A stretch of 64,000 nucleotides of DNA from an uncultured Gammaproteobacteria bacterium (lineage in GTDB: Bacteria; Pseudomonadota; Gammaproteobacteria; Natronospirales; JAIVGZ01). Position 1 is the stretch's first letter, and every line of letters begins with the position of its first letter. Both the position numbers and the translations under genes were made by a program. The notes under the pieces were generated by a model that was given only the letters and a program-made list of their open reading frames with translations, had not been told where the DNA came from and did no database searches. The stretch spans positions 7,612 to 71,611 of the forward strand of contig CAZKFT010000006.1 of the NCBI GenBank assembly GCA_964552205.1, written 5' to 3'. Shown here in pieces: positions 46,260 through 60,953 of this stretch.

Positions 46260-46826
46260 GTGAACGGACTCCCTGAATTGGCCATCATTGCATTACCAAT
46301 CCTCCTCGCCGGTGTGGCCTTGTTTTTCTGGTGGCATCATCGTCGCCGTGGCGCTGAAGCGACTCTTGCCAGACTGATGAAGGAGCGTAGCCAGGCCTGG
46401 GTCAGGGAGTTGTACATTCCCGATGGGATGGATGGGCAGATTCATGTCCCGAATGTCATCAGGACAGCGGCAGGCTTCGTGGTCATAGACGTTATCCGGG
46501 TGCACGGCTCCGTTTTCGGTGGTGAACAGATTGACGATTGGACCGTCATCGTCAACGGGCACTCGCGAAAATTCCGCAACCCAGTCACCACAAACCGGGC
46601 GCGGGTTCTGGCAGTCCGTGGTCTGGTTCCGGGTGTACCCATCCATGGGCGGGTTGTGCTCCTGGGCGATGTTGCGTTCCCTAAAGGCTGTCCGAAGGAT
46701 GTCCTGACGCTGGACACGCTTGGCGCGGAGCTTGCCGGCCTACCTGCTGCATCCGGCAGCAGAGACTGGGACGAGGCTTGGTACGGTTTGGCCGCCTGCG
46801 CTAACGCGCGGCAGGATGCTGTTTGA
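46260..46826 (+). CDS. Membrane-anchored NERD (nuclease-related domain)-like protein
   Basis: N-terminal TM helix, then the pattern GQIHVPNVIRTAAGFVVIDV...G..FGG...D.W....NG....F.NP resembling NERD. GTG start. Assignment from memory of the motif only. Confidence 0.6.
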   Translation: MNGLPELAIIALPILLAGVALFFWWHHRRRGAEATLARLMKERSQAWVRELYIPDGMDGQIHVPNVIRTAAGFVVIDVIRVHGSVFGGEQIDDWTVIVNGHSRKFRNPVTTNRARVLAVRGLVPGVPIHGRVVLLGDVAFPKGCPKDVLTLDTLGAELAGLPAASGSRDWDEAWYGLAACANARQDAV

Positions 46827-47565
46827 ACCAGGCTGATAGTTGTTCATACAACGCAGGGTGATGATTTTTGAGGTCCACCGGCTGGTCGAAGAACATCTCA
46901 ACGCAGACAGCAAAGAACTCACCTGGATTCTCGGCGGCGTAAGGGTCCAGCCAAGTCTGTTCACCGCTCTCCAGTCGTTCGACCAGATCATCAAAGGCCC
47001 CTTGGAACGCATCGGTCCACGCCGTGACCGCCATGCCGGGGTGCAGCGGTGGAATCCCGTTCACAGAACCGTCCAGGGCATCGAGCTTGTGGGCGAATTC
47101 GTGCGCGACCACATTGAAGCCTCTTCCGTGGCCACTGTTGACGACATCGGTCCAGGACAGGACTACAGGACCGCGTTCCCAGGCCTCACCTGCGAGAATA
47201 TCGTCGGAGGTATGTACGATGCCCGCCTCATCGGTTTCCATGCGCTCCCTGACCACGAACTCACCCGGATAGACAATCACCGAGAGGAAACCTTCGTAAT
47301 AATCAAGGTCCAGGTTCAGGATGGGTAGACAAGCCAGGGCTGCAATCCGTACGCGGGCATTCTCGTCGAGTGTCATCCCTCCTGCAGGCTCAAAAGTTTT
47401 TTCCTGAAGGAAGAGCAGAACCAAATCGTGCAGTCGTGCGCGCTCAGCATCGTCCAGCCCATGGAATACGCGCACTTGCCGCAGCGTCTCCATCCAGAGG
47501 GTAGGGGGAATTCGGTGGCGTGCCAAAGCACGCTTCCTGCGCCAGTTTCGTAGTAGTGGAAACAT
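46801..47565 (-). CDS. mtfA: MtfA-type M90 zinc metallopeptidase
   Basis: HEFAHKLD zinc motif. Collinear by eye with E. coli MtfA (GEAW..GPVVLSW, NPGEFFAV.E.FF). Confidence 0.85.
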   Translation of the reverse strand: MFPLLRNWRRKRALARHRIPPTLWMETLRQVRVFHGLDDAERARLHDLVLLFLQEKTFEPAGGMTLDENARVRIAALACLPILNLDLDYYEGFLSVIVYPGEFVVRERMETDEAGIVHTSDDILAGEAWERGPVVLSWTDVVNSGHGRGFNVVAHEFAHKLDALDGSVNGIPPLHPGMAVTAWTDAFQGAFDDLVERLESGEQTWLDPYAAENPGEFFAVCVEMFFDQPVDLKNHHPALYEQLSAWFKQHPAAR

Positions 47566-47618
47566 TGTTGAATGATATCGCCTTTACTTCGTGGCCTACG
47601 CCTGTGAGGATTGGGGGC

Positions 47619-48515
47619 ATGGGAAGATTAATCAAGGGTAAATGGTCCACCGAGTGGTATGACACCGAGTCCACCGGCGGGAAGTTCGAACGAGAAGACT
47701 CGGGTTTTAGAGAGTGGGTGAGTGTGCGGGAACCAGGGCGCTATCACCTGTATGTCTCCTTGGCCTGTCCTTGGGCACACCGGACGCTGATATTCAGGCA
47801 GTTGAAGGGTCTGGCCGGGGACATATCGGTGTCAGTAGTGGACCCATACATGGGCGACGATGGCTGGGCGTTCAGCGACGGCCCTGCCTGCATACCCGAT
47901 GTCGTGAACGGCAAACGCTTCATGCACGAGATTTATACTCTCGCCAAGCCGGATTACTCAGGAAGGGTCACTGTCCCAGTGTTGTGGGACAAGGAAAAGG
48001 CAACCATCGTCAACAACGAGTCCTCGGAGATCATTAGGATCTTCAACGACATTGGTGACGGCCCCGATTTCTATCCGAAGGCACTGCGCGGGGCCATTGA
48101 CGATATCAACGCGTTCGTTTACGACCGCGTGAACAATGGCGTCTACAAGGCTGGCTTTGCCACCAAGCAGAAGGTGTATGAAGAGGCGTTCACCCAGCTC
48201 TTCGATGCCTTGGATACCTTGGAGGAGTTGCTCTCTAACCAACCCTACCTGGTAGGCGATACGCTGACAGAAGCCGATTGGAGGCTGTTCACGACCTTGA
48301 TCCGCTTCGACCCCGTCTATGTCGGGCACTTCAAATGCAACAAGCGACGTATTGCGGATTACCCTGCCTTGTCACGGCTGGTCAGTGAGTTGTATCGAGT
48401 TCCGGGTGTTGCCGACACGGTGGATTTCCGCCACATCAAAGAGCATTACTACCGAAGCCACCCGACCATCAACCCGAACGGCATCGTCCCTGCAGGACCT
48501 GATTGGCAGCCCTGA
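47619..48515 (+). CDS. yqjG: Glutathionyl-hydroquinone reductase (Xi-class GST)
   Basis: MGRLIKGKWSTEWYDTESTGGKFER, YHLYVSLACPWAHRT and GRVTVPVLWDK closely track E. coli YqjG. The track start 47520 is an upstream extension. Confidence 0.9.
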   Translation: MGRLIKGKWSTEWYDTESTGGKFEREDSGFREWVSVREPGRYHLYVSLACPWAHRTLIFRQLKGLAGDISVSVVDPYMGDDGWAFSDGPACIPDVVNGKRFMHEIYTLAKPDYSGRVTVPVLWDKEKATIVNNESSEIIRIFNDIGDGPDFYPKALRGAIDDINAFVYDRVNNGVYKAGFATKQKVYEEAFTQLFDALDTLEELLSNQPYLVGDTLTEADWRLFTTLIRFDPVYVGHFKCNKRRIADYPALSRLVSELYRVPGVADTVDFRHIKEHYYRSHPTINPNGIVPAGPDWQP

Positions 48516-49075
48516 GAGGTAAGCGTCAGCGCTGGGCAGCTTGGCTTCTCGCCATGGGTGGTTGGCATGTCGAGGGCGATGTGCCGCCAATCGACAAGGC
48601 GGTGCTCGCAATCGCCCCTCATACCTCGAACTGGGATTTCCTCGTTCTCGTACTGGCGAAATTCACACTGGGTCTGAACGTCACTTTCATCGGCAAACAC
48701 ACGATTTTTTTGGGGCCTTTCGGTTGGTGGCTGCGCAGTATGGGTGGCATTCCCGTGGACCGGTCCAAGCCCGGCGGCATCGTTGAGCAAATGATTGATG
48801 AGATGCGCCGAGCTGACTGCATGTATTTTGCTTTGGCACCGGAAGGAACACGCAGTTTGAGGGCGGGTTGGAAAACGGGGTTCTACCGTATTGCTGTGGG
48901 TGCCGCCGCGCCGATTGTTCCCATCATCATTGACGCGGGCAGAAAGCAGGTACGCATTGGCGAACCCTTGATTTGCCGCGGGGAGCTTGATGAGGATTTC
49001 CGAAGGCTGGAGGCAGTATTCGCCAATGCGACTGGAATCCGTGCCACACTGGCCTCTCCCGTGAAGCCACTTTGA
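48503..49075 (+). CDS. Lysophospholipid (1-acyl-glycerol-3-phosphate type) acyltransferase-family protein
   Basis: HX4D motif APHTSNWDF and the EGTR motif. TTG start overlaps the yqjG end. Confidence 0.8.
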   Translation: MAALRGKRQRWAAWLLAMGGWHVEGDVPPIDKAVLAIAPHTSNWDFLVLVLAKFTLGLNVTFIGKHTIFLGPFGWWLRSMGGIPVDRSKPGGIVEQMIDEMRRADCMYFALAPEGTRSLRAGWKTGFYRIAVGAAAPIVPIIIDAGRKQVRIGEPLICRGELDEDFRRLEAVFANATGIRATLASPVKPL

Positions 49076-49085
49076 GGAGAACCTG

Positions 49086-49481
49086 ATGCCATTCGAACTT
49101 CAGATGCTCGGTTGGACGACGCTACTGGTGCTGTTGGCATTCCTGCCGGGATCGATTGCCAAGCGTCAGGCGTACGGCGATCGGTGGTTGCTTTCCAATC
49201 GTGAACCGGAAGGTCTCCCTCCATTGACAGGGTGGGGCGGCCGCGCGGTCCGCGCTCATGAGAACCTGAAAGAGAATTTCCCGGCGTTTGCCGCTGCCGT
49301 TCTCTTGCTGGTGGTTGCCAACAAGTATGGAGGCCAGGGCACGGAGTTTGCGGCCTCCCTGTTCCTCGTAGCGCGGCTTGTGCACATGGGGTCCTACTTG
49401 GCTGGATGGTTCTGGCCCCGCACCATCGCCTGGGCGACGGGTTGGGGCGCTACCATCTACATCGTTTTCAAAGCGCTCTAG
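49086..49481 (+). CDS. MAPEG-family membrane protein
   Basis: 131 aa with 3-4 TM helices. R.H.N..ENFP.F and ARL.H motifs of MAPEG. Confidence 0.75.
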   Translation: MPFELQMLGWTTLLVLLAFLPGSIAKRQAYGDRWLLSNREPEGLPPLTGWGGRAVRAHENLKENFPAFAAAVLLLVVANKYGGQGTEFAASLFLVARLVHMGSYLAGWFWPRTIAWATGWGATIYIVFKAL

Positions 49482-49506
49482 TTCATCCCCATCCGCCGCC
49501 CCGCGG

Positions 49507-52500
49507 CTAATCCTCGAACCAGAGGCGCCCGCGCGCGCGTTCGCGAGGCCACACCTCGTTCATCGTGCGGGCGTCGTAGAGGCGTCCATTCACCATGGTG
49601 TAACGGATGTGCTCCGAGTTGCGGATATCGTCGAGCGGGTTCTGTTCCAGTACGATGAGATCGGCCAGCTTGCCGGGTTCCAGCGAGCCCAGGTGCTCAT
49701 CCATGCCGATGTACCACGCACCATTCCGCGTGCCTGCCCGCAAGGCTTCATGGGGCGTCATGCCACCCTGAACGAACATCCACAGCTCCCAATGGGCCGC
49801 TAGCCCCTCACGTTGACCGTGGGCCCCGAGTTGTACGCTGACTCCGCGGTCCAGCAAGGTCTTGGCGACGCGCGAAATGTTGATGTGGTTGTACTCCTCC
49901 TCAGGCGCCATGGTGCGCCGACGTGATGCCGGGTCCAGGACCTGACGCGGAACGAAGGTCGCCAATCGCTCGTTGGCCCAAACATCCGTGTGCTGGTACC
50001 AATAACGCTCTCCCCAGATTCCACCGTAAGCAACACCGATGGTCGGGGTATATCCAACACGGCTTTGTGACCACAGTTGCATGACATCCTCATACATGCG
50101 GGCAGGGGGAACCGAGTGCTCGATTCCCGTGTGTCCGTCAATGATCATGTTCATGTTGTGCTGGAAGGTTGCTCCGCCTTCCGGATGGACCTGCATGCCG
50201 AGCACCTGCGCTGCACGGATGACCTGCTGGCGCTGGTCACGGCGGGGCTGGTTGTAACTCTTGACACTGAAGGCTCCAATAGCCTGCATGCGCCGCAGAT
50301 GTGACAGCGCATCGTCGTAGCTGTTGATCTCCGCTGTAATTGCCGTGGTTGCGCCGTACAAAATCGTGCCCGTGGAGAAAATTCGTGGCGCGATGGCTCT
50401 GCCTGCACGCGCCATCTCCGACGAAGCGAAAATCTGTGCAGAGTTATTCGACGGGTCGTGCACAGTGGTGACACCGAAGGACAGCATCGACAGGTTCAGA
50501 TAATTCGATTGTGGCTGGACCTGGTTGGCGCCCTGCGGGCCATGGGCATGGACATCAATCAATCCAGGCATGATGGTGTGGCCGCTGGCGTCGATGACTC
50601 GGGCGCCACGGGGGACCTCGATATCGCCCGCTGCCCCAATCGCTACGATGCGGTTGTCACGGACAACAACAGTACCGTTTTCGATGACTTCGTCGTCCCG
50701 CATGGTGATGAGTCGTGCGCCCACCAGCGCAACAACGCCTTCGGGTTTGTCCAATGCGGTGGAAAACGAGATGTTGAGGCCCGATTCCGGAGCCTTGGGC
50801 AGTTCGTCAGGTGCGCCATCCACAAAGGCGAATGCATCGCGCAGCTCGAGCGTGAATAACTCCGGCCCAAGCGCCCAATGCAGGCGTTGCGAGTCACCCG
50901 ACCAATGCAGGTACTCACCGGCATCCCTCGAAACTCTTCGTATCGGTAGCGAGCGCATCGAGGGCCCGATATCCACAACGCCGCCGGTTGCAACGAACGG
51001 TGTCAGATACGCATTGAAACGCTCAGTGAATGCGACCCATTTCCCATCCGGAGACAGGGAAAACTCTGTCGCGTAGTCGCTACGCAGGTGGTCTCGTTGG
51101 TCTGCGCCTTGCATGTCGATACTTGCAAGCAGCCGCTTGCCGCTCTCGAAGCGAACGAAGAACACGCGGTCACTGTTGGCGGAATACTGTGGCTGGATTC
51201 CGCTGCGTGTCAATAAACGTGAATCTCCACCGTTGGCGGGAACCGCATACAAACCCGGGTTCATCCCCCAATGGGGTGACAACAACATGTTGCCGGTACT
51301 CTTGCGGTACACGACAGTCCGACCGTCCGGCGAGAACACCGGCTCGTGGTAATGGCCTGGCTCCCTTGTGAGGATTCGGCCCGTGCCGCCCCTCGCCGAC
51401 ACCACCCGGACGCTTGCGAGCTCGCGGTCATGCCAGGTCGTGTACACGATGTTTCGGCCGTCACGGGAGAAGGAGGGCGCGAACTCGAAGTGCTCATTCT
51501 GGCGGGTCAATCTTCGCGGGGTACCGTTGGGGAGGTCACGAACATAGAGGTGCCCAAGCGCTTGGTACACGACGCGATCACCGGAGGGGCTCACCTGCAC
51601 CCAGCGCAGCATTCGCACACCGAATGCGTCTGGGGCCGGATCCACGGCAGGACGGACCGCTTCGGCCAGCCTGCGAGTATCGTTTACGCGAAACGGGATG
51701 TTGCTGACTGCGCGTGTCCGCGTGTCGATGCGCTGGATACGTCCGTCCGCCCAGAACACGATATGGCGGGAGTCAGGGGTCCAGGCCATCGTTGGGTAAA
51801 CGCCATGAATGGCCCAAATTTCCTGGTTATCACGGTCAAGGTTTTCGAAAATCGGCGTTTCAATACCAGAACGCAGGTCTTTCAGAAACAGTACGCTCTG
51901 ATTGCGAACCCGCCGGATGAACGCCAACTGGGACCCATCGGGGGAGGGGGTAGGGCGAATTGCGCCGCCTGGGCCTCCTGCGAGGACCGTTGTGTCGCCG
52001 GTTTCCCTGTCAAGGCGCTGGATGACATAAATCTGCCCGTTCGGATCCTTGTTGTACTCGAATGTAGAGCCTGGGGTCGTGTCCTGGCTGTAGTACAGAT
52101 AGCGGCCATCTGGCGAAAGGACCGGCTCGTTCACATCTTTCTGGTCGTTCGGGCGACGAGTCAGTTGCAGCCCGGCGCCACCACCACGGTGGTACAGCCA
52201 CATCTCCCCCGCACCGGCCGATCGGGTGCCCGTGAAGTGCTTGCGGGCGACAATGTATTCGCTGTCCGGGGTCCACGCAGGCCCGTTCAGCAGGCGGAAG
52301 GTTTCGCGGGAGACTTGCTGCGGATTGGAACCATCGCGAGCCATGACCCAAATATTGTCCCCGCCGCTTCGGTCGGAGGTGAACGCGATCCAGCGACCGT
52401 CCGGGCTGAATCTGGGTTGCATGTTCCAGGCGATGCCACTGGTCAGGGCCCGCGCCTCACCACCCGCAATGGGCATGCTGTAGATGTCACCCAACAGATC

Positions 52501-52683
52501 GAAGACGACCTCACGGCCATCGGGGCTGACATCAAGGCTCATCCAGGTGCCTCGGTCGACCGAGATACTGGCCTCGTAGGTTTCGTAGGGGGGTTCAGAA
52601 ACATCCCAGCGCTCGCTGCTACTTTCTTGTGCGGCGAGTGGGAGGGCAGTTAGGGCAATGGCGAGCAGTGAAATCAGTCTCAT
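49507..52683 (-). CDS. Secreted TolB-like beta-propeller / amidohydrolase fusion protein (1058 aa)
   Basis: Signal peptide MRLISLLAIALTALPLAAQ at ATG 52683. Repeated PD40-like units (SPDGR.., FSPDG..). C-terminal metal-dependent hydrolase domain (GLIDVHAH). The track ORF to 53103 is an upstream extension. Confidence 0.85.
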   Translation of the reverse strand: MRLISLLAIALTALPLAAQESSSERWDVSEPPYETYEASISVDRGTWMSLDVSPDGREVVFDLLGDIYSMPIAGGEARALTSGIAWNMQPRFSPDGRWIAFTSDRSGGDNIWVMARDGSNPQQVSRETFRLLNGPAWTPDSEYIVARKHFTGTRSAGAGEMWLYHRGGGAGLQLTRRPNDQKDVNEPVLSPDGRYLYYSQDTTPGSTFEYNKDPNGQIYVIQRLDRETGDTTVLAGGPGGAIRPTPSPDGSQLAFIRRVRNQSVLFLKDLRSGIETPIFENLDRDNQEIWAIHGVYPTMAWTPDSRHIVFWADGRIQRIDTRTRAVSNIPFRVNDTRRLAEAVRPAVDPAPDAFGVRMLRWVQVSPSGDRVVYQALGHLYVRDLPNGTPRRLTRQNEHFEFAPSFSRDGRNIVYTTWHDRELASVRVVSARGGTGRILTREPGHYHEPVFSPDGRTVVYRKSTGNMLLSPHWGMNPGLYAVPANGGDSRLLTRSGIQPQYSANSDRVFFVRFESGKRLLASIDMQGADQRDHLRSDYATEFSLSPDGKWVAFTERFNAYLTPFVATGGVVDIGPSMRSLPIRRVSRDAGEYLHWSGDSQRLHWALGPELFTLELRDAFAFVDGAPDELPKAPESGLNISFSTALDKPEGVVALVGARLITMRDDEVIENGTVVVRDNRIVAIGAAGDIEVPRGARVIDASGHTIMPGLIDVHAHGPQGANQVQPQSNYLNLSMLSFGVTTVHDPSNNSAQIFASSEMARAGRAIAPRIFSTGTILYGATTAITAEINSYDDALSHLRRMQAIGAFSVKSYNQPRRDQRQQVIRAAQVLGMQVHPEGGATFQHNMNMIIDGHTGIEHSVPPARMYEDVMQLWSQSRVGYTPTIGVAYGGIWGERYWYQHTDVWANERLATFVPRQVLDPASRRRTMAPEEEYNHINISRVAKTLLDRGVSVQLGAHGQREGLAAHWELWMFVQGGMTPHEALRAGTRNGAWYIGMDEHLGSLEPGKLADLIVLEQNPLDDIRNSEHIRYTMVNGRLYDARTMNEVWPRERARGRLWFED

Positions 52684-52764
52684 TTTTGGTCGGGCTCCAG
52701 CTTGGAACTGTTGAACCGGCATCGTAACCGATATAGTAGGGACCGGAAAACCGGAGGTACTGTG

Positions 52765-53496
52765 ATGACTAACAAATCCAATTTCGCCCCCTTGATGTCG
52801 CTTGTGGTGGCCGCCCTGTTCGTCGCCGGATGTGATGGCTCCGTATTCGGGAGCGTGGTCATTCCTGATGGCACCCAGAATGCAACAGCGTCGCAGACCG
52901 TCAACGGGTCCATTTCCGTAGGGAATGATGTGACTGTGACCTCTGGCACGTTCCGAACTGTGAACGGTGCTGCTGTCGTTGGGCAGCGCAGCACTGTCCC
53001 TGGCATCTCGGTGGTCAACGGAGCGATTCGAATTGGTGAAGACAGCCGCACGGGTGAGTTGGAGACCGTGAACGGCGGAATCGTGTTGTCCGAGCGTGCG
53101 CAAAGTTCAAGCAACCTTCAAACCGTCAACGGTGAAATCAGGGTAGCCACCGGGGCTGCCATTGCGGGAAACGTACGGGCAGTGAACGGGCGAATCACGC
53201 TTGATGGCGTTGCCGTAGGCGGGGATATCGAAAACGTGAATGGCGGAATCACACTGTCCGGTGCAACGGTGGTTGAAGGAGACCTCATCGTACGCAGGAC
53301 GCAAGGCTTGAGCCTGGATACCTCTGATCCACCGGTTGTTGTCATCGGTGCCGAGGTACAAATCAAGGGTCGGCTCACCTTCGAGCGCACTGTGGATCTC
53401 CAGATCCATCGGGGCGCCCAAGTTGGAGAGATTACCGGTGCCACGCCGACTTGGATTGAACCCACTACCGTAACAGGCGACAACAACGAGGGTTGA
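52765..53496 (+). CDS. Repeat lipoprotein with 7 x ~20-aa VNGxI units (beta-helix-like; resembles DUF4097 'putative adhesin' type)
   Basis: Lipobox LFVAGC after ATG 52765 (SD GGAGG). Motifs TVNGSI, TVNGAA, VVNGAI, TVNGGI, TVNGEI, AVNGRI and NVNGGI at about 18-21 aa spacing. Confidence 0.7.
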   Translation: MTNKSNFAPLMSLVVAALFVAGCDGSVFGSVVIPDGTQNATASQTVNGSISVGNDVTVTSGTFRTVNGAAVVGQRSTVPGISVVNGAIRIGEDSRTGELETVNGGIVLSERAQSSSNLQTVNGEIRVATGAAIAGNVRAVNGRITLDGVAVGGDIENVNGGITLSGATVVEGDLIVRRTQGLSLDTSDPPVVVIGAEVQIKGRLTFERTVDLQIHRGAQVGEITGATPTWIEPTTVTGDNNEG

Positions 53497-53503
53497 TACC
53501 GGT

Positions 53504-54244
53504 TTGAACCCGTTAGCGCTGTTCCGTTCCGTACGGCAGCCATTGCCGCCGTACACGCTGCGTGTCAGCAGGCGCGCGCGCCGGATGTGGCTGCGGGTTT
53601 CCCGATGGGGGCGCATCGAGGTCGTTGTACCAGTGCGCCATAGCCAGGCCGGGGTGGAGGCTTTCGTCGATGAGAATCGCTCATGGATCAAGAGGACGCT
53701 GGTCGAGTTCAATCGCGAGTACGGGCCAGCGCCGAGAATGGTTCTGCCGACCCGGCTGGTACTCAAGGCAACTGGTGAAACATGGACGGTCAAGTTCCGG
53801 AAGGTTTCAGGAATAGCGCCGCGGCTACGAGAATTTCCGGACCAGTGCCTTTTACTAGAGGCAGAGAAAAATACGCCACAGGTATGGGCGGGTTTGCTGC
53901 GGGCATGGCTTCAGCGGCATGGCAAAGCAGAACTGACGCCGTGGCTCAGGGGCATATCGCAAGAAATGGGGCTGAGGTATCGCCGCGTTCAGGTTCGAGG
54001 TCAGCGAACCCGATGGGGAAGTTGTTCGAATTCCGGCACCATCAGTTTGAATTATTGCCTGTTGTTCCTGCCACCACGTTTGGTGCGCTATCTCATGGTG
54101 CACGAACTATCACATCTCCGGCACATGAATCACTCCAAGCGTTTCTGGGACCGTGTGGCGGAGCACTCACCCAACTGGCGGAAGCTGGATGCGGAGTTGC
54201 GGGAGGCGCGACGCCTGGTCCCCGACTGGGTGGAACTCGCCTAG
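53504..54244 (+). CDS. YgjP-like (DUF45/M48-related) zinc metallohydrolase
   Basis: HELSHLRHMNHSKRFW motif and the RTRWGSC motif. TTG start. Confidence 0.8.
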   Translation: MNPLALFRSVRQPLPPYTLRVSRRARRMWLRVSRWGRIEVVVPVRHSQAGVEAFVDENRSWIKRTLVEFNREYGPAPRMVLPTRLVLKATGETWTVKFRKVSGIAPRLREFPDQCLLLEAEKNTPQVWAGLLRAWLQRHGKAELTPWLRGISQEMGLRYRRVQVRGQRTRWGSCSNSGTISLNYCLLFLPPRLVRYLMVHELSHLRHMNHSKRFWDRVAEHSPNWRKLDAELREARRLVPDWVELA

Positions 54245-54444
54245 TAATGTGGTGGAGGAGGCTCCTCGCCCTCGGTTGCAGCCTCTGTCATGCTTGCCAT
54301 TCGTTCCCGCAACACCCCCAACTCGTCTCTCAGCGTTCCACTGAGTCGTTGCTGAAGCGCCAGTTCGTCACTCATGGCGCCAAGCGCCGCTTCAAGATGC
54401 GCGATTCGGATTTCCAGTTCGGTGATACGCTCTGCGTCTGACAT
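54241..54444 (-). CDS. slyX: SlyX-family coiled-coil protein
   Basis: RITELEIRIAHLEAAL...PPPPHY resembles E. coli SlyX, including the C-terminal PPPHY. Confidence 0.85.
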   Translation of the reverse strand: MSDAERITELEIRIAHLEAALGAMSDELALQQRLSGTLRDELGVLRERMASMTEAATEGEEPPPPHY

Positions 54445-56557
54445 GGGAACCTATTTTGCCACGGCCGCTCGCGGTACCGAGTACCTTCTTGCCGAGGAAC
54501 TGCGTTTATTAGGAGCGGAGGAGGTGCGGGAATCGCGGGCCGGCGTATATTTCAGCGGCCCATTGGAGGTCGGGTACCGCGCCTGTATCGGTTCGCGACT
54601 TGCGAGCAGGGTCCTGCATGAAATAGCCCGGTTTCCTGCAGTTACCGCCGATCAACTCTACGCCGGGGCCCGGGAAATTGACTGGGACAACTTAATCGTC
54701 CCCGGCGCCACCATCGCTGTGGAGGTCAATGGGACAACCCCCGAGCTGAACAACTCCCACTTCTCTGCCTTGCGCATCAAGGATGCCGTGGTCGATGTCA
54801 TGAGAGAAGCGAGGGACGGCATTCGCCCCGCAATTGATACCGAACACCCGGATTTCGCCATTTTTGCGCTTTTGCGCAAAGGTGAGGTGCGCGTGTCCTT
54901 TGATCTCGCCGGCAGGCCTCTGCACCGGCGTGGCTATCGGGAGGAGGCGGGTGAGGCGCCTTTGCGAGAGACTCTGGCGGCCGCCTTGCTGCTGCGTAGT
55001 GGATGGCCGGACATTGCCGCGCGCGGAGGCGCGTTTCTGGACCCGATGTGTGGTGCAGGTACGTTGGCCATTGAGGCCGCACTCATGGCCACGGACGGCG
55101 CCCCAGGTCTGCTTTGGGCAAGCCAGAGCCCGCGGGGGTGGCGGGGCCACGACTTGAAGTCATGGCACGGTTTGGTGGTCGAGGCGGCGGACCGCATGGA
55201 GCAGGGCATGGAAAGCCTACCGCCGATTCACGGATCGGACCGCGATCCTCGCGTAATCGAGATCGCCAAGCGCAATGCCAAACGAGCCGGCGTTGGGAAG
55301 CACATCCATTTTTCGGTGGCAGAAGCCACTACGGTAAGTCCGCCAGCTGCAACAGGGCTATTGGTCACCAATCCTCCGTACGGGGAAAGGATTGCCCATG
55401 ACACCATGCTGGTCCCGCTGTATGCGGGGCTAGGCCAGCGGCTCAGGGATGCATTCGAAGGCTGGCATGCAGCCATTCTCACGCCGACGCCTGAGCTTGG
55501 ATTCCACCTTGGCTTGCGTTCCCATCGCCAAGGCACATTCTGGAATGGTCCGATTGAGTGCCAGCTGCTCGAATTCGAAGTCCTACCAGAGCGGGCGCGG
55601 GTTCCCCATGGTCAGGTCGAGCCCGCGCCAGATTTCGCCAACCGTCTACGGAAGAACCTGAAAGCATTGTCGAAATGGGCTACTCGCGAAGGGGTGGAAT
55701 GTTTCCGGGTCTATGACGCGGACCTGCCGGAATACGCCCTGGCCATCGACCTGTATGGGCATTTCGTTCATGTGCAGGAATACGCGCCCCCGAAAACCAT
55801 TGATCCTGACAAGGCGCGAAAACGGCTGGATGCCGCATTGGCGGCTTTGCCAGGCGTCCTAGGCGTGGATGCTGCCGACATCTACCTGAAACAACGACAG
55901 CGAGGAAAAGGGGGTGCCCGTTACGGCAAACTCGCAGAGGGCGGTCGCAACCACGAAGTGAGCGAGGGTCCGGCCCGGTTTTGGGTGAACTTCACCGACC
56001 ATCTCGATACTGGCGTGTTCTTGGACCATAGGCCAGTCAGAGAATATATAAGAAAAACAGCTAGTAACAAGACATTTCTAAACCTTTACTGTTATACTGC
56101 GACGGCCACCGTTCATGCCGCTCTGGGCGGCGCCAAGTCCAGCACCTCGGTGGATATGTCCCGCACCTATCTGGACTGGGCGCGCCGCAACTTCTTGTTG
56201 AACGGGGTGGACCAAAAGGCGCACGAACTGATCCAGGCAGATTGCACCAAGTGGTTGGAGGTGTGTACGGCCAAATACGACCTCATCTTCCTGGATCCAC
56301 CCACCTTCTCGAGTTCCAAGCGTATGGAGGGCGTGCTGGATGTGCAGCGCGACCATGTCACCATGATTCGTCAGGCGGTGGCGTGCCTCGCTGCGGGCGG
56401 AGAACTGTTGTTCTCGACCAACCACCAGAAGTTCAAGCTGGATGCGGACGCGCTCACGGACCTGCAGCTTGAGGACCTCTCCCCCAAGATGCTTCCCGAA
56501 GACTTCAAGCGCACCCCTAGGATTCACCGCGTCTGGCGCATCACCACCCCTACCTGA
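54443..56557 (+). CDS. rlmL: Bifunctional 23S rRNA methyltransferase RlmKL (m2G2445/m7G2069)
   Basis: MGTYFATAARGTEYLLAEELRLLGA aligns with the E. coli RlmL N-terminus. THUMP region, NPPYGER motif and C-terminal SAM domain (FLNLYCYTATATVHAALGGA). The track start 54374 is an extension. Confidence 0.9.
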   Translation: MGTYFATAARGTEYLLAEELRLLGAEEVRESRAGVYFSGPLEVGYRACIGSRLASRVLHEIARFPAVTADQLYAGAREIDWDNLIVPGATIAVEVNGTTPELNNSHFSALRIKDAVVDVMREARDGIRPAIDTEHPDFAIFALLRKGEVRVSFDLAGRPLHRRGYREEAGEAPLRETLAAALLLRSGWPDIAARGGAFLDPMCGAGTLAIEAALMATDGAPGLLWASQSPRGWRGHDLKSWHGLVVEAADRMEQGMESLPPIHGSDRDPRVIEIAKRNAKRAGVGKHIHFSVAEATTVSPPAATGLLVTNPPYGERIAHDTMLVPLYAGLGQRLRDAFEGWHAAILTPTPELGFHLGLRSHRQGTFWNGPIECQLLEFEVLPERARVPHGQVEPAPDFANRLRKNLKALSKWATREGVECFRVYDADLPEYALAIDLYGHFVHVQEYAPPKTIDPDKARKRLDAALAALPGVLGVDAADIYLKQRQRGKGGARYGKLAEGGRNHEVSEGPARFWVNFTDHLDTGVFLDHRPVREYIRKTASNKTFLNLYCYTATATVHAALGGAKSSTSVDMSRTYLDWARRNFLLNGVDQKAHELIQADCTKWLEVCTAKYDLIFLDPPTFSSSKRMEGVLDVQRDHVTMIRQAVACLAAGGELLFSTNHQKFKLDADALTDLQLEDLSPKMLPEDFKRTPRIHRVWRITTPT

Positions 56558-56806
56558 TTTCCTCCTCGCTCGGTCCTGGAAAATCCCAAACGCGCCGCCT
56601 CGCTCACCGGCGTACGCGCGCTGAGCGACCGAAGCGGGTTGCGTGCCAGGAGCGCGCTGAGCGGGAGTCGGGGAGTCCCGGTGAAGGGCAGGGGCGCAGT
56701 AGGCGGCGCACCCAGACCTGCCGCGACACCAATGGCTAATGCCGCAGCGAAGGGTGCGAGCTGGCGCGTTCAACCCCGGAGGGAGCCGAGCACAAAAACG
56801 CTCGAA

Positions 56807-57625
56807 TCAAAGGAACAGGTCAGGAGCGAGCGGAGCGCCAGGCTTGACCGCGTACTGTTCGAAATCCATGACACCCGCTTCTCGCAGGACATCCTCGTCA
56901 ATCAGGAACTGGCCGGAGCCTTGTTGACTGTTCCGGGTGAGAACGGCGTGCGCGGCGTCGGCCATGATTTCCGGCTTGCGGCAGTTGTCGGGGTTCACCA
57001 TGCCTCCCAGCATGGCCAGCGCCGCCGTAGCAATCACGGTCTTGGGCCACAGGGCGTTGACTGCGATACCGGCTGGGGCAAACTCCGCGGCCATCCCCAG
57101 TACGCACATGCTCATCCCGTACTTGGAGATTGTGTAAGCCGTATGGTGGCGGAACCACTTGGGATCCAGATTGATCGGTGGTGACAATACCAGCACGTGG
57201 GGGTTGTCGGACTTGATCAACCACGGCAGGCAGGCTTGGGTCACGCAGAACGTGCCCCTCGTGTTGACACCTTGCATCAGGTCGTACCGTCGCATGGGCG
57301 TTTCGGCGGTCTTGGTGAGATTGATGGCACTTGCGTTGTTAATGACCGCATCAATCCCACCGAAGTGTTCTGCGGCTTGCGTGACCGCCGCAGCGACCTG
57401 AAGTTCGTCACGAATATCCACTTCCAGTGCGAGCGCTTTCCCTCCAGCGGCCTCCACCTGCTCCGCGGCCGTGAAGATGGTTCCTGGCAACTTGGGGTGT
57501 GGCTTGGTCGTTTTCGCTGCTATGACGATATTCGCGCCATCTGTAGCAGCCCGCAGGGCTATGGCCAGACCAATCCCCCGGCTGGCCCCGGAGATGAACA
57601 GCGTTTTACCCTTCAGCGTGGTCAT
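56807..57625 (-). CDS. SDR-family oxidoreductase (HSDL2-like)
   Basis: TLFISGASRGIGLAIA, NNASA and YTISKYGMS catalytic motifs. Confidence 0.85.
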   Translation of the reverse strand: MTTLKGKTLFISGASRGIGLAIALRAATDGANIVIAAKTTKPHPKLPGTIFTAAEQVEAAGGKALALEVDIRDELQVAAAVTQAAEHFGGIDAVINNASAINLTKTAETPMRRYDLMQGVNTRGTFCVTQACLPWLIKSDNPHVLVLSPPINLDPKWFRHHTAYTISKYGMSMCVLGMAAEFAPAGIAVNALWPKTVIATAALAMLGGMVNPDNCRKPEIMADAAHAVLTRNSQQGSGQFLIDEDVLREAGVMDFEQYAVKPGAPLAPDLFL

Positions 57626-57647
57626 TGATGGCTCCCATGGTGACCTG

Positions 57648-57656
57648 TGCTATAAC
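57648..57656 (+). promoter_or_regulatory. Extended -10-like element TGcTATAAC upstream of the EncFtn-like gene
   Basis: TG-n-TATAAC lies 29 nt upstream of ATG 57685. SD GAGG sits between them. No -35 needed for the extended -10 class. Sequence match only. Confidence 0.3.
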
Positions 57657-57684
57657 TTTACCGTACTGCAACGAGGGAACGAAG

Positions 57685-57975
57685 ATGTCCAACGAAGGTT
57701 ACCACGAGCCATATGAGGAGCTGTCCGATGATACCCGCGACATGCATCGCGCCATCATTTCTCTTATGGAGGAGCTTGAGGCCGTGGATTGGTACCAGCA
57801 GCGCGTAGATGCTTGCAAGGACCCCGAATTGAAAAAGATCCTCGCGCACAACCGCGACGAGGAGATTGAGCATGCAGCAATGGTTCTAGAGTGGATTCGT
57901 CGACACAACAGTACTTTCGACAAGGAGCTCAAGGAACGCTTGTTCAGCGATGACAAAATCGTGGACCATGATTGA
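57685..57975 (+). CDS. Encapsulated-ferritin (EncFtn)-type ferritin-like protein, core domain only (96 aa)
   Basis: HEPYEELSDDTRDMHRAIISLMEELEAVDWYQQRVDACKDPELKKILAHNRDEEIEHAAMVLEWIRR closely tracks the EncFtn signature as I recall it from Rhodospirillum rubrum (..MEELEAVDWY..ILAHNRDEEKEHAAM.LEW.RR). SD GAGG. Confidence 0.8.
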   Translation: MSNEGYHEPYEELSDDTRDMHRAIISLMEELEAVDWYQQRVDACKDPELKKILAHNRDEEIEHAAMVLEWIRRHNSTFDKELKERLFSDDKIVDHD

Positions 57976-57994
57976 CTATTGATGGGGGGCGGGC

Positions 57995-58213
57995 ATGGAT
58001 AAAACCATGAAGATTGTGGAAGTAGGGGAGCCGGAAGAGGGCAAGAGGACATCGCCCATCTGGGTAGAGGGTGGCGATGTCGAGAAGACCGGGCAGCCGA
58101 TCTGCTGGTTCAATGACCAAGAGTTCGCAGAGGACGAAATGGTCTATAGCGGCGCGGAAATCCTGCGCTGCGACGCAGGAGTCTGGGTCCGTTCAGGTCA
58201 ACGCCAAGGCTAA
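57995..58213 (+). CDS. Hypothetical 72-aa protein (2 Cys, acidic), 19 nt downstream of the EncFtn-like gene
   Basis: ORF with a G-rich SD-like stretch upstream. Alternative start ATG 58007. I recognise no family. Fills the whole gap to the convergent acnA. Confidence 0.5.
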   Translation: MDKTMKIVEVGEPEEGKRTSPIWVEGGDVEKTGQPICWFNDQEFAEDEMVYSGAEILRCDAGVWVRSGQRQG

Positions 58214-58220
58214 TCGGAAC

Positions 58221-60953
58221 TCAAGCTGCCAGCTGGCGAAGTACGTAGTGCAGGATGCCGCCGTGCTGGAAGTACTCCACTTCCTTGGGGGTATCGATAC
58301 GCACCTTCGCCTCAAATTCCGTCACTTGACCCGTCGCGGAGGTTGCCTTTACTTGGACAGATTTCGCTCTCCCTTCGTCCAACCCGACAATATCGAAGGT
58401 TTCGGTGCCGTCCAGGCTCAAAGTCGCCGCGGTTTCACCATCACGGAACTGCAAGGGCAATACGCCCATGCCGACCAGATTGGAGCGGTGGATACGCTCA
58501 TAGCTTTCGGCAATGACAGCGCGGACTCCGAGGAGGCGGGTACCCTTGGCGGCCCAGTCGCGGGACGAGCCAGCGCCGTACTCCTTACCAGCAAGAATGA
58601 CGAGTGGGACCTTGTCCTTCTGGTATCGCATGGAGGCGTCATAGATGAACATCTGCTCGCCGCTGGGCTGGTGAACAGTCCAACCGCCTTCGGTCCCAGG
58701 GGCCATCAGGTTTCGGAGCCGAATATTGGCGAAGGTACCCCGCATCATGACCTCATGGTTTCCGCGGCGTGAGCCGTAGGAATTGAAGTCGTTCTTCTTC
58801 ACGCCGTTCTCCAAAAGGTACTTACCCGCCGGACTGTCTGCCTTGATGGAACCAGCTGGGGAAATGTGATCGGTTGTAATCATGTCGCCGAGCACCGCGA
58901 GTGCGCGAGCATTGCGAATGTCATCAATCTTGTCCGGTGTCTTCGTCATTCCCTCGAAATACGGTGGGTTCTGGATGTAGGTTGAGCGGTTATCCCATGT
59001 GAACAGATCACCTTCTGGAACCGTCAATCCATTCCAGTTGCTGTCGCCCTTGAACACACTCTCGTAACTGCTTTTGAACATCTCGGAATCGACTGACTGC
59101 ACCGCATCGTGAATTTCCTTTTGCGTAGGCCAGATGTCCTTGAGGAACACCGGACCTTCGGTACCTTCTCCCAATGGTTCCAGATACGGGTCGAAGTCCA
59201 TGCGTCCTGCCAGCGCGTAAGCAACCACGAGTGGCGGCGAGGCAAGGTAATTCATCTTCACATCCGGATGGATGCGACCCTCGAAGTTCCGGTTTCCAGA
59301 CAGGACGGCCACCGCGGCCAGATCGTGTTCTTGGATTGCCTTGCTGATGGGTTCCTGTAGCGGACCGGAGTTGCCGATGCAGGTGGTGCAACCATACCCA
59401 ACCAGGTGGAATCCGATGGCAGCAAGATCATCGAGTACCCCTGCTTTCTTCAGATACTCAGTAACGACCAGCGAACCGGGGGCCAGCGAGGTCTTCACCC
59501 AGGGCTTGCGATTCAAGCCCTTTTCCCGTGCCTTGCGTGCAACCAAGCCGGCACCCAGCATCACTGCCGGATTCGAGGTGTTGGTACAGCTGGTGATGGC
59601 AGCAATCACGACCGACCCGTCCCGCAGCGTGAAGGTATCTGCATCGAGTGTGACATTAGCTGAGCCGTTTGCACCGGACTGATGCGAACCAACTGCTGTG
59701 CCTCCGCCTTCGCCTTCAAAACGCGATTCGAGTGCACTTTGCGGCTTGCGTCCTTCGACCATCGGAACGACAGATTTCTGGAAGTCTGCCTTCGCTTCTG
59801 TCAGCGCAACACGGTCTTGGGGCCTGCGGGGCCCTGCGATGCTCGGCACCACAGTGCCTAGGTCAAGCTCGAGCACATCGGTGTATTCTGCCGGCTTCGC
59901 GCCGTCTTCGCGCCACAGGCCCTGCGCCTTTGCGTAGGCCTCGACCAAGGCTACCTGGTCATCACTGCGCCCCGTCAACTTGAGATAACGGGTTGTCTCG
60001 CCATCAATGGGGAAGATGGCGCAGGTTGATCCGAATTCTGGCGACATGTTCCCGAGGGTGGCACGGTCTGCGAGTGGCAGATGCTTCAAACCATCGCCGA
60101 AGAACTCAACAAATTTCCCGACTACACCCTTCTTGCGCAACATCTGCGTGACAGTGAGTACGAGGTCTGTTGCGGTCGCGCCCTCCGGCAGGTTGCCGAT
60201 CAACTTGAAGCCAACGACCTGGGGGATAAGCATCGTGACCGGTTGACCAAGCATGGCGGCTTCGGCTTCGATTCCGCCAACACCCCAACCCAGAACACCC
60301 AGCCCGTTCACCATGGTCGTGTGGGAATCGGTGCCAACGACGGTATCGGGCCACGCGGTTAGGGTCCCATCCTTGTCCTCGCCGAAGACTACGCGGGCGA
60401 GATACTCGATGTTCACCTGGTGAACGATGCCGGTATTCGGGGGGACCACCTTGAAATTGGAAAACGCGCTTTGTCCCCAGCGCAGGAAACTATAACGTTC
60501 CTGATTACGACCGAACTCGATTTCGGTATTTTGGAACAAGGACTTTGCAGTGCCAAAGGTATCCACCTGGACCGAGTGATCAATGACCAGTTCAGCAGGG
60601 GATAGCGGGTTGATTCTTGCGGCGTCACCGCCCAAAGCGCGCATCGCATCGCGCATGGCGGCAAGGTCGACCACCGCCGGTACACCTGTGAAGTCCTGCA
60701 GGATGACGCGTGCCGGCGTGAAGGAAATCTCCTTGTCTGGCACTGCTTGCGGATCCCAGCCAGCCAAGGCCTCGACATCGCTTGCCGTGACATTGGCACC
60801 ATCCTGATGACGTAACAGGTTCTCAAGCAGGATCTTCAGTGAAAAAGGCAAGCGCGAGAGGTCGAACTTGTCCTTCAGGACATTTAGGTCGTAAATGGTG
60901 TAGGACTTGTCGCCGACTTTGAGGGTCGTGCGGGCCTGGTAGCTGTCCGACAT
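58221..60953 (-). CDS. acnA: Aconitate hydratase A
   Basis: 910 aa with canonical aconitase/IRP motifs ([35 protein letters not shown]). Confidence 0.95.

What the first reader, a model, noticed from the sequence alone, without database searches (positions are those of the whole stretch)
57648..58213. Orphan EncFtn-type ferritin with no encapsulin shell gene and no targeting tail, paired with an unknown 72-aa protein
The 96-aa ORF matches the encapsulated-ferritin signature almost residue for residue across the helical core. This includes the di-iron ligand contexts (MEELEAVDWY ... HNRDEEIEHAAM). In characterised systems such as Rhodospirillum rubrum, EncFtn is encoded directly next to its encapsulin shell. 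It also carries a flexible C-terminal extension ending in a GSLxIGSL-type cargo-loading peptide, because the decamer oxidises iron but needs the shell to store it. Here the protein ends right after the core (…LFSDDKIVDHD). The flanking genes are an SDR (divergent) and acnA (convergent), and no HK97-fold-sized ORF is nearby. The only partner is a 72-aa acidic protein with two Cys (..GQPICWFNDQEF..ILRCDAGVWV..), 19 nt downstream, which I cannot place in any family. The pair may represent a shell-independent use of the EncFtn fold, with the small protein as a partner, or cargo for a shell encoded elsewhere using a different targeting mode. The location next to the Fe-S enzyme aconitase may or may not be meaningful.
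Basis: partly seen in the sequence, partly recalled or inferred. Interest (0 to 1): 0.55.

Follow-up and report, generated by a model that had tools for sequence, protein, structure and literature searches.

The report
Ordinary shell-less short EncFtn ferritin
The 96-aa gene is a real encapsulated-ferritin-fold protein with no targeting tail and no shell gene nearby, but it belongs to a large, already described class of short "non-encapsulated" EncFtn proteins, and the small downstream protein is a lineage-specific neighbour rather than a conserved partner.

Summary
A 96-aa EncFtn-fold gene lies at 57685-57975 and a 72-aa acidic two-Cys gene follows 19 nt later at 57995-58213. They sit between a divergent SDR and a convergent acnA. 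There is no targeting peptide, and no Family-1 encapsulin in the 64-kb window.

It is not an oddity. The best solved-structure match is NE0167 of Nitrosomonas europaea (PDB 3K6C, 95 aa, E=1.4e-40, 74% identity). That protein is the type example of the class called "Non-EncFtn" (He 2016) or "s-FLP" (2024 review). More than 8000 protein clusters match, and loci in at least 592 species. The listed relatives are all about 95-104 aa. All di-iron ligands are invariant, the short C-terminus contains His, and none has a targeting peptide. None of the 80 loci examined has an encapsulin within 10 kb.

The 72-aa ORF is a real gene (dN/dS 0.10-0.23) and a distant DUF1496-like protein. It is absent from all 80 s-FLP loci, and its wider family is never next to an EncFtn (0 of 80 loci). 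Among its few close homologues, one other lineage keeps EncFtn-small-acnA. A third, equally related syntenic lineage has lost or lacks the EncFtn while the small gene stays under selection. A fourth follows a rhodanese gene.

Verdict: a new member of a known, functionally uncharacterised class. The partner idea is not supported. Low interest.

The parts
57644..57656 (+). Conserved 12-mer CCTGTGCTATAA, containing an extended -10-like TGcTATAAC. It is the likely promoter element for EncFtn plus the small ORF, although it could instead serve the divergent SDR.
   Evidence: The identical 12-mer lies at the same relative place in L001 (9946-9957) and L086, where it directly precedes the small ORF with no EncFtn. 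The consensus promoter scanner, which requires a -35 element, found nothing. Promoter function is therefore inferred.
57673..57678 (+). Shine-Dalgarno-like GAGGGA, 6 nt upstream of the EncFtn ATG.
   Evidence: Read directly from the sequence. All 79 s-FLP loci inspected have a GGAG-type site at this distance.
57685..57975 (+). Short tail-less EncFtn (s-FLP / Non-EncFtn class), 96 aa. Ferroxidase-centre residues are E30, E60 and H63, with Y37 nearby. Entry-site residues are E29 and E32; W36 and H55xxxE59 are also present. The protein ends ...LFSDDKIVDHD.
   Evidence: PF22277 E=7e-44. TIGR04535 core only. 3K6C E=1.4e-40 with 68/92 identities; Rru and Hoch EncFtn 56-59% identical. All catalytic positions are invariant in 115 relatives.
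57984..57993 (+). G-rich ribosome-binding region (GGGGGGCGGG) in the 19-nt spacer before the small ORF.
   Evidence: The GGGCGGG motif is also found before the small ORF in L001 and L086. Its function is inferred.
57995..58213 (+). 72-aa acidic DUF1496-like small protein. It has an N-terminal motif VGxPxxxxRTSPI and a C-terminal five-strand beta domain with invariant C37, N40, G53, C59, G62 and W64.
   Evidence: Four close homologue clusters. dN/dS is 0.10-0.23, with in-frame indels. A profile search found 105 remote relatives of about 80 aa, several of which pass the DUF1496 threshold. AF2 model pLDDT 85.9. No PDB fold match with E<1.
56807..57625 (-). Divergent SDR-family oxidoreductase. Context only, not part of the system.
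   Evidence: NCBIfam PRK08278, 441 bits. Syntenic in L001-L004.
58221..60953 (-). Convergent aconitate hydratase AcnA, 7 nt from the small ORF stop. Context only.
   Evidence: NCBIfam AcnA, 1431 bits. The same convergent arrangement is seen in L001 (81% identity) and L085 (80% identity).

Best explanation
The 96-aa gene encodes a member of the short, targeting-peptide-less EncFtn class (s-FLP / 'Non-EncFtn', type structure NE0167 / PDB 3K6C).

By homology it should form the two-helix EncFtn protomer. This assembles through metal-bridged dimers into an annular decamer. Each dimer interface carries a di-iron ferroxidase centre, here E30, E60 and H63 from each chain with Y37 nearby.

The most likely function is a free cytosolic ferroxidase. 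It would oxidise Fe(II) with O2 or H2O2, limiting Fenton chemistry. It would not store mineral itself and would not be loaded into an encapsulin. The oxidised iron would pass to other sinks.

In this genome the gene lies between a conserved promoter-like element and the ribosome-binding site of a lineage-specific DUF1496-like small gene. The two are therefore probably co-transcribed. That linkage is a local gene-order feature, not a functional module.

Shown here: family and class membership, intact catalytic residues, absence of a TP, absence of a nearby shell gene here and in 80 relatives, and lack of a conserved partner. Inferred: decamer formation, ferroxidase activity, shell independence at the whole-genome level, the physiological role, and the bicistronic transcript.
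For: - Family: PF22277, E=7e-44, full length.
- Targeting part missing: TIGR04535 matches only profile positions 1-88 of 114.
- Best PDB hit is 3K6C NE0167 (95 aa), E=1.4e-40 with 68/92 identities. It scores above the TP-bearing Hoch and Rru EncFtns, which are 56-59% identical.
- Size of the class: more than 8000 homologous clusters. The best 120 are all 94-104 aa. None has a TP-like motif, all have His in the last 6 residues, all FOC and entry-site residues are invariant, and 54 of 96 positions are at least 97% conserved.
- Spread: at least 592 species loci in the GTDB representative genomes. The best 80 all encode about 95-aa proteins ending ...LFTDKPIAH-type.
- No shell gene: no Family-1 encapsulin in the 64-kb window or within 10 kb of any of the 80 loci.
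- No conserved neighbour gene.
- Literature: the class is described as Non-EncFtn in PMC5012862 and as s-FLP in PMC11202242, which reports that 3K6C forms a decamer with an FOC like other EncFtns.
- Activity of relatives: isolated EncFtns oxidise iron but do not store it (PMC11202242).
- Local synteny: window 46500-58748 is colinear with L001. The EncFtn gene is the only indel in the SDR/small-ORF spacer, and the CCTGTGCTATAA element and G-rich RBS are shared.
Against: - No s-FLP has been characterised biochemically. Ferroxidase activity and decamer formation are extrapolated from 3K6C and from the TP-bearing relatives.
- The source genome beyond this 64-kb window (from a 78-kb contig) could not be searched. 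An encapsulin elsewhere is therefore not excluded. The 2024 review explicitly leaves open that the short C-terminus could be a cryptic binding sequence.
- Only Family-1 shells were searched for, using one query.
- There is no regulatory evidence. Fur-box matches upstream of 79 s-FLPs equal the shuffled controls.
- The promoter scanner found no sigma-70 site.
Confidence: 0.65

Rival explanations
1. The 72-aa DUF1496-like protein is a dedicated partner of the shell-less EncFtn. It might act as an Fe(III) acceptor, an adaptor or a redox partner using its two invariant Cys. The two genes would then form a functional two-gene module.
For: - The 19-nt spacer and shared upstream element suggest one transcript.
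- The same order, EncFtn then small ORF (16-nt gap) then convergent AcnA, occurs in a second lineage, L085. Its AcnA is 80% identical to the window's.
- The small protein has two invariant Cys and a conserved N-terminal linear motif.
Against: - 0 of 80 s-FLP loci carry any member of the small-protein family within 10 kb, whether searched with the single sequence or with the family HMM.
- 0 of 80 loci of the wider small-protein family carry an EncFtn within 3 kb.
- L001-L004, L086 and L087 have SDR then small ORF with no EncFtn. There the small gene is still under purifying selection (dN/dS 0.10).
- L089 has the small ORF after a rhodanese gene, and L088 has it before gdhA.
- The small-ORF subfamily has only about 5 clusters, against more than 8000 for s-FLP.
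Confidence: 0.08
2. The protein is cargo for an encapsulin encoded elsewhere in the genome. It would be loaded through a non-canonical signal such as the short C-terminal ...LF(S/T)xxxI..H stretch.
For: - The review PMC11202242 lists LFTD(E/N)KPIAHE as a putative, uncharacterised TP. It also notes that a short linker is sterically compatible with encapsulation.
- Secondary cargo genes can lie away from shell operons (10.1101/085266).
- The whole genome was not available.
Against: - The LFTExPI motif is also present in the TP-bearing Rru and Hoch EncFtns. There it ends the folded core and is followed by a linker plus the real TP, so it is a core element and not a loading signal (alignments).
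- None of 80 s-FLP loci, nor the 64-kb window, has a Family-1 shell gene within reach.
- No TP-like L-x-[IV]-x-x-L motif occurs in 120 relatives.
- s-FLPs are found as single genes in at least 592 species, in unrelated housekeeping contexts.
Confidence: 0.1
3. The gene is a degenerate or truncated remnant of a canonical encapsulin cargo gene that lost its tail and its shell. It would be a decaying gene.
For: It lacks the tail and the shell gene. Its GC content is somewhat lower than that of its neighbours (51.7% against 57-60%).
Against: - All catalytic residues are intact.
- Hundreds of orthologues have the same length and a conserved C-terminal ending. They are 75-87% identical across classes and phyla.
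- It has a good RBS.
- GC3 (62.5%) is close to that of the neighbours.
Confidence: 0.01

Closest known systems
NE0167 of Nitrosomonas europaea (PDB 3K6C), the type example of the s-FLP / 'Non-EncFtn' class
   Same: It has the same length (95 against 96 aa) and 68/92 identical residues. It shares the FOC ligands and HxxxE motif, lacks a targeting peptide, and has a short C-terminus ending in His (PMC11202242).
   Different: The window protein has W36 (DWY), as in encapsulated EncFtns, where NE0167 has L (DLY). Its tail reads SDDKIVDHD rather than TNKPIAHE-type. It is followed by a small DUF1496-like gene.
Encapsulated ferritins with a targeting peptide (R. rubrum Rru_A0973, PDB 5DA5; H. ochraceum Hoch_3836, PDB 5N5F/7OE2)
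   Same: They share the two-helix EncFtn core at 56-59% identity, with identical FOC and entry-site residues. The C-terminal LFTExPI core motif is shared.
   Different: Those proteins continue for about 35-45 more residues, comprising a linker and a SLGIGSLK-type TP. They are encoded next to a Family-1 encapsulin. Neither feature is present here.
DUF1496 (PF07383; E. coli YnjH-type small proteins), for the 72-aa ORF
   Same: The C-terminal pattern C-x-F-N...G..V.SG...L.C..G.W is shared. Several remote relatives of the small ORF pass the Pfam threshold, scoring 21.7-26.6 bits against a cutoff of 20.2.
   Different: The window protein itself scores 14.3 bits, below the cutoff. It also has an extra N-terminal VGxP...TSPI motif and an acidic linker. 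From my own knowledge, it lacks the signal peptide typical of enterobacterial DUF1496 proteins.

Membership tests
EncFtn fold (Pfam PF22277 EncFtn-like) | Full-length HMM match above the gathering threshold | tested here: met
   147.9 bits against a cutoff of 27; residues 6-89 match profile positions 2-85 of 85.
EncFtn fold (Pfam PF22277 EncFtn-like) | Di-iron ferroxidase-centre ligands (Rru E32, E62, H65, plus Y39) and the HxxxE-ExxH motif | tested here: met
   E30, E60, H63, Y37 and H55xxxE59 are present, and are invariant in 115 relatives.
EncFtn fold (Pfam PF22277 EncFtn-like) | Annular decamer with ferroxidase activity | not testable with these tools
   Inferred from 74% identity to 3K6C, which PMC11202242 reports as a decamer. 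No multimer prediction or assay was available.
Family-1 encapsulin cargo (FLP-TP) | Flexible C-terminal extension ending in a targeting peptide (L/F-x-V/I-x-x-L/I, for example SLGIGSLK) | tested here: not met
   The protein ends 9 residues after the LF core motif. TIGR04535 profile positions 89-114 are unmatched. No TP-like motif occurs in it or in 120 relatives.
Family-1 encapsulin cargo (FLP-TP) | Encoded next to an encapsulin shell gene | tested here: not met
   No encapsulin hit (best E=0.37) in the 64-kb window or in the +-10 kb flanks of 80 related loci. The neighbours are SDR, AcnA, HflD, MnmA and RlmK/L.
Family-1 encapsulin cargo (FLP-TP) | An encapsulin shell gene anywhere in the same genome | not testable with these tools
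   Only 64 kb of a 78-kb contig was available. The supplement search of PMC8346489 was uninformative because the positive controls were absent.
s-FLP / Non-EncFtn class (type: NE0167, 3K6C) | About 95-aa EncFtn core with only a short C-terminus of about 10 aa (LFT(D/E/N)KPIAH-type) and no TP | tested here: met
   96 aa with tail LFSDDKIVDHD. The best PDB hit is 3K6C. It clusters with relatives of 94-104 aa, all with His in the last 6 residues.
s-FLP / Non-EncFtn class (type: NE0167, 3K6C) | Stand-alone gene not in an encapsulin operon | tested here: met
DUF1496 (PF07383), for the 72-aa ORF | HMM match above the gathering threshold | tested here: not met
   14.3 bits against a cutoff of 20.2 for the window protein. 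Remote relatives P0134, P0139, P0127 and P0163 do pass, so it is a distant relative and not a formal member.

The most novel reading that the evidence does not exclude
In this small gammaproteobacterial lineage, the shell-less EncFtn decamer and the DUF1496-like two-Cys protein have become a genuine two-component system. They would be co-transcribed and physically interacting, with the small protein accepting or escorting Fe(III) or electrons. This would give the first functional handle on what non-encapsulated EncFtns do. The related lineage that lacks the EncFtn behind the same upstream element would serve as a natural knock-out.
Probability: 0.07. Interest if true: 0.55.

Novelty: new member of a known kind. 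Interest (0 to 1): 0.18.

Why it matters
It matters little as a discovery. Tail-less, shell-less EncFtn proteins are a recognised and very widespread class with a solved structure, and this is one more member.

The residual value is twofold.

First, the class as a whole remains biochemically uncharacterised. It is extraordinarily conserved and is routinely mis-named 'encapsulin-associated' by annotation pipelines. The survey here (0 of 80 loci with a shell gene, no conserved neighbour, an invariant ferroxidase centre, a universal C-terminal His) supports treating it as a free-standing enzyme.

Second, the local comparison offers a small natural experiment. The EncFtn is present in the window and in L085 but absent in L001, behind the same conserved upstream element. 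This could be used in expression or fitness studies.

Tried and rejected
1. Exact look-up of the window's EncFtn and small ORF in the contig index: not on record. The source genome therefore could not be extended.
2. Neighbour clustering around 76 s-FLP loci: no conserved neighbour. The best real cluster, an ABC ATPase, occurs in 11 loci and is not adjacent.
3. Fur-box scan of the 200 nt upstream of 79 s-FLP genes: the score distribution is the same as for shuffled sequence. There is no evidence for Fur control.
4. Sigma-70 and terminator scan of 57300-58500: no promoter call. The one terminator-like hit, inside the EncFtn gene on the opposite strand, is at chance level.
5. Foldseek of the AF2 model of the small protein against the PDB: no match with E<1. 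Only vague resemblance to small beta-rich domains such as VWF/mucin and chitin-binding modules.
6. Supplementary tables of Andreas & Giessen 2021, searched for s-FLP-bearing genera: no hits. However, the positive controls (R. rubrum, H. ochraceum, T. maritima) were also absent because the stored files are cut, so the result is uninformative.
7. Metagenome scan with the close small-ORF alignment A1: nothing confirmed. Alignment A2 was too diverse to derive search patterns.
8. Literature search for functional work on NE0167, Non-EncFtn or s-FLP: only the 2016 eLife paper and the 2024 review mention them.
9. The P. multocida 'EncFtn' paper concerns a prophage capsid-like protein and is irrelevant.
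10. The idea that the EncFtn was a recent insertion into the small ORF's leader was weakened. L085 carries the same pair and its AcnA is 80% identical to the window's. An ancestral pair with loss in the L001 lineage is at least as likely.

Full report
**1. The observation**

The window holds a 96-aa ORF at 57685-57975 (+). After a 19-nt spacer comes a 72-aa ORF at 57995-58213 (+). All the quoted peptide strings are present.

The two ORFs sit between two confirmed genes. One is a divergent SDR (56807-57625, -, NCBIfam PRK08278, 441 bits). The other is a convergent AcnA (58221-60953, -, 1431 bits). Further out lie HflD, MnmA, RlmK/L and a SlyX-like gene. All of these are housekeeping genes. The small protein is acidic (pI 4.4) and has two Cys.

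**2. Identity of the 96-aa protein**

- Pfam PF22277 (EncFtn-like) matches end to end, at E=7e-44.
- NCBIfam TIGR04535 'encapsulin-associated ferritin-like protein' just passes, at 131 bits against a cutoff of 125. It covers only profile positions 1-88 of 114, so the part that models the linker and targeting peptide is unmatched.
- Against the PDB, the best hit is not an encapsulated ferritin. It is NE0167 of Nitrosomonas europaea (3K6C, 95 aa, E=1.4e-40, 68/92 identical).
- The TP-bearing H. ochraceum and R. rubrum proteins follow at 56-59% identity.
- Mapping R. rubrum numbering onto the window protein gives the ferroxidase-centre ligands E30, E60 and H63 with Y37. It also gives the entry-site residues E29 and E32, W36, and the HxxxE motif (H55-E59). 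All are present.

**3. It is a member of a large, known class**

- A search of 5.8 billion proteins returned at least 8000 homologous clusters. The best 120 are 94-104 aa and 79-85% identical. They come from Gamma-, Beta- and Alphaproteobacteria, Spirochaetaceae/Myxococcales MAGs and others.
The 80 best encode about 95-aa proteins ending in ...DYLFTDKPIAH(E/K/D)-type tails. They include MAGs labelled Nitrospirales and Planctomycetota.
- In the top 120, every catalytic position is invariant and 54 of 96 positions are at least 97% conserved. All 116 tails that could be parsed contain His in the last six residues. None has a TP-like motif.

The literature already describes this group:
- He et al. 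[quoted passage not shown] They used 3K6C as their molecular-replacement model (PMC5012862).
- The 2024 review defines 's-FLP'. [quoted passage not shown] It also states that their encapsulation status is unknown (PMC11202242).

No paper in the library reports biochemistry or physiology for any s-FLP.

**4. Shell gene**

I checked my recollected T. maritima encapsulin sequence against 3DKT. As a phmmer query it also retrieves H. ochraceum, M. tuberculosis and M. xanthus shells.

I then ran it with --max against every stop-to-stop ORF of at least 40 aa in the whole window and in loci L001-L084. The best E-value was 0.37. There is therefore no Family-1 shell gene in the 64 kb, nor within 10 kb of any of 80 s-FLP genes.

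Whole-genome absence could not be tested.

The review's suggestion that LFTD(E/N)KPIAHE might be a cryptic TP is weakened by the alignments. The same LFTE(G/R)PI motif closes the folded core in the Rru and Hoch proteins, upstream of their real linker and TP.

**5. The 72-aa ORF**

It is a real gene.
- There are four close homologue clusters. They share an invariant MDKTM start, in-frame indels, and a conserved C-terminal half.
- dN/dS is 0.10-0.23 in the informative pairs.
- The NCBI annotation begins at an internal ATG (68 aa). This is probably four codons too short.

It has a wider family.
- A profile search of 1.84 billion representatives found 105 relatives of about 80 aa.
- Their consensus is an N-terminal VGAPDPELxTSPI motif, then an acidic linker, then CYFN...G..V.SG...L.C..G.W. 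Positions G11, S20, C37, N40, G53, C59, G62 and W64 are invariant.
- Several relatives pass the Pfam DUF1496 threshold. The window protein does not.
- AF2 gives a confident five-strand beta domain (pLDDT 85.9) with no significant PDB neighbour.

**6. Is it a partner of the EncFtn?**

From the EncFtn side, neither the single sequence nor a family HMM finds any member within 10 kb of the 80 s-FLP genes. No other neighbour is conserved either.

From the small-protein side, 80 metagenomic loci of the wider family contain no EncFtn within 3 kb. L088 has gdhA downstream.

Within the close subfamily the picture is mixed.
- The window region 46500-58748 is colinear with L001 at 66-75% nt identity. The only difference in the SDR/small-ORF spacer is the EncFtn gene.
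- L001 and L086 share with the window the 12-mer CCTGTGCTATAA (an extended -10-like TGcTATAA) and a G-rich RBS. There the small ORF follows directly.
- L085, whose AcnA is 80% identical to the window's, has EncFtn, then a 16-nt gap, then the small ORF, then convergent AcnA. For comparison, L001's AcnA is 81% identical.
- L089 has the small ORF behind a rhodanese-type gene.

So the pair occurs in two of three syntenic lineages and is probably ancestral there. The small gene remains under purifying selection where the EncFtn is missing (L001 against L086, dN/dS 0.10). The two EncFtns are 75% identical and each has closer relatives elsewhere.

This fits a local gene-order feature with probable co-transcription. 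It does not fit an obligate module.

**7. Mechanism**

Shown: class membership, an intact di-iron site, no TP, no nearby shell gene, and no conserved partner.

Inferred from 3K6C and from the characterised EncFtns (PMC11202242, PMC5012862):
- Metal-dependent assembly of dimers into a decameric ring.
- Fe(II) oxidation at the dimer-interface FOC.
- No mineral storage by the ring itself.

I therefore commit to a free cytosolic ferroxidase that detoxifies iron and peroxide. My confidence is about 0.65 for the whole statement and about 0.95 for class membership. No Fur-box enrichment was found upstream of s-FLPs, so regulation is unknown.

**8. Novelty and verdict**

The finding is real but ordinary. 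It is a new member of a known, widespread, structurally solved but functionally uncharacterised class.

The 'shell-independent use of the fold' reading agrees with the existing view of the class.

Interest is low (0.18). The most novel reading still open is a lineage-specific EncFtn/DUF1496-like two-component system, with probability about 0.07.

Noticed in passing
window 57685-57975; loci L005-L084: The s-FLP family is unusually conserved. Members are 75-87% identical across proteobacterial classes and MAGs labelled Nitrospirales, Planctomycetota and Spirochaetaceae. 54 of 96 positions are at least 97% conserved. There is a near-invariant Cys (C44). Every member has 1-4 His in the last few residues (IAHE, IGHHHD, HHDHDH...). 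The C-terminal His cluster is a class signature with no assigned role.
   Followed up: partly
window 57685-57975: NCBIfam TIGR04535 names these proteins 'encapsulin-associated ferritin-like protein', although the match covers only the core (profile positions 1-88 of 114). None of the 80 loci examined has an encapsulin nearby. The name is propagated to Thioalkalivibrio, Zobellella and other records and is misleading.
   Followed up: partly
window 57995-58213; proteins P0126-P0230; loci L090-L169: There is an uncharacterised family of about 80-aa cytoplasmic proteins. Members have an N-terminal VGAPDPELxTSPI motif, an acidic linker, and a DUF1496-like beta domain with 2-4 conserved Cys, often ending CDPDNP. 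The profile search found 105 representatives and the metagenome scan at least 411 loci. No gene context is conserved; 9 of 80 loci have a large adenylate-cyclase-like ORF downstream.
   Followed up: partly
window 57995-58009: The public (NCBI) gene call for the small ORF starts at the second in-frame ATG (68 aa, P0001). The MDKTM N-terminus is invariant in all five close homologues, so the 72-aa start is more likely.
   Followed up: yes
L007, L009 and 3-4 similar loci: In Thioalkalivibrio-type loci the s-FLP sits in a recurring cluster. An upstream rubrerythrin-like gene is followed by a Cys-rich Fe-S oxidoreductase (HdrD/GlpC-like by eye), then the s-FLP, then a roughly 197-aa protein 28 nt downstream. 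This is the only recurring redox or iron context seen (5-6 of 76 loci). Family names were not checked with HMMs.
   Followed up: no
window 58213-58221; L001 10234-10237: The small ORF and acnA converge with only 7 nt between their stop codons, and overlap by 4 nt in L001. There is no terminator-like structure, so the transcripts of the two must overlap.
   Followed up: no
window 47298-48524: A roughly 1.2-kb stretch carrying a 331-aa ORF (47520-48515) is present in the window but absent from the otherwise colinear relative L001. By eye the ORF looks like a glutathionyl-hydroquinone reductase or GST-like protein. This was not checked.
   Followed up: no
window 52702-53496: A 264-aa ORF has a hydrophobic N-terminus with a Cys (lipoprotein-like) and many 'VNG-x-I' repeats. 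Its L001 orthologue has no Pfam hit. It is not an encapsulin.
   Followed up: no
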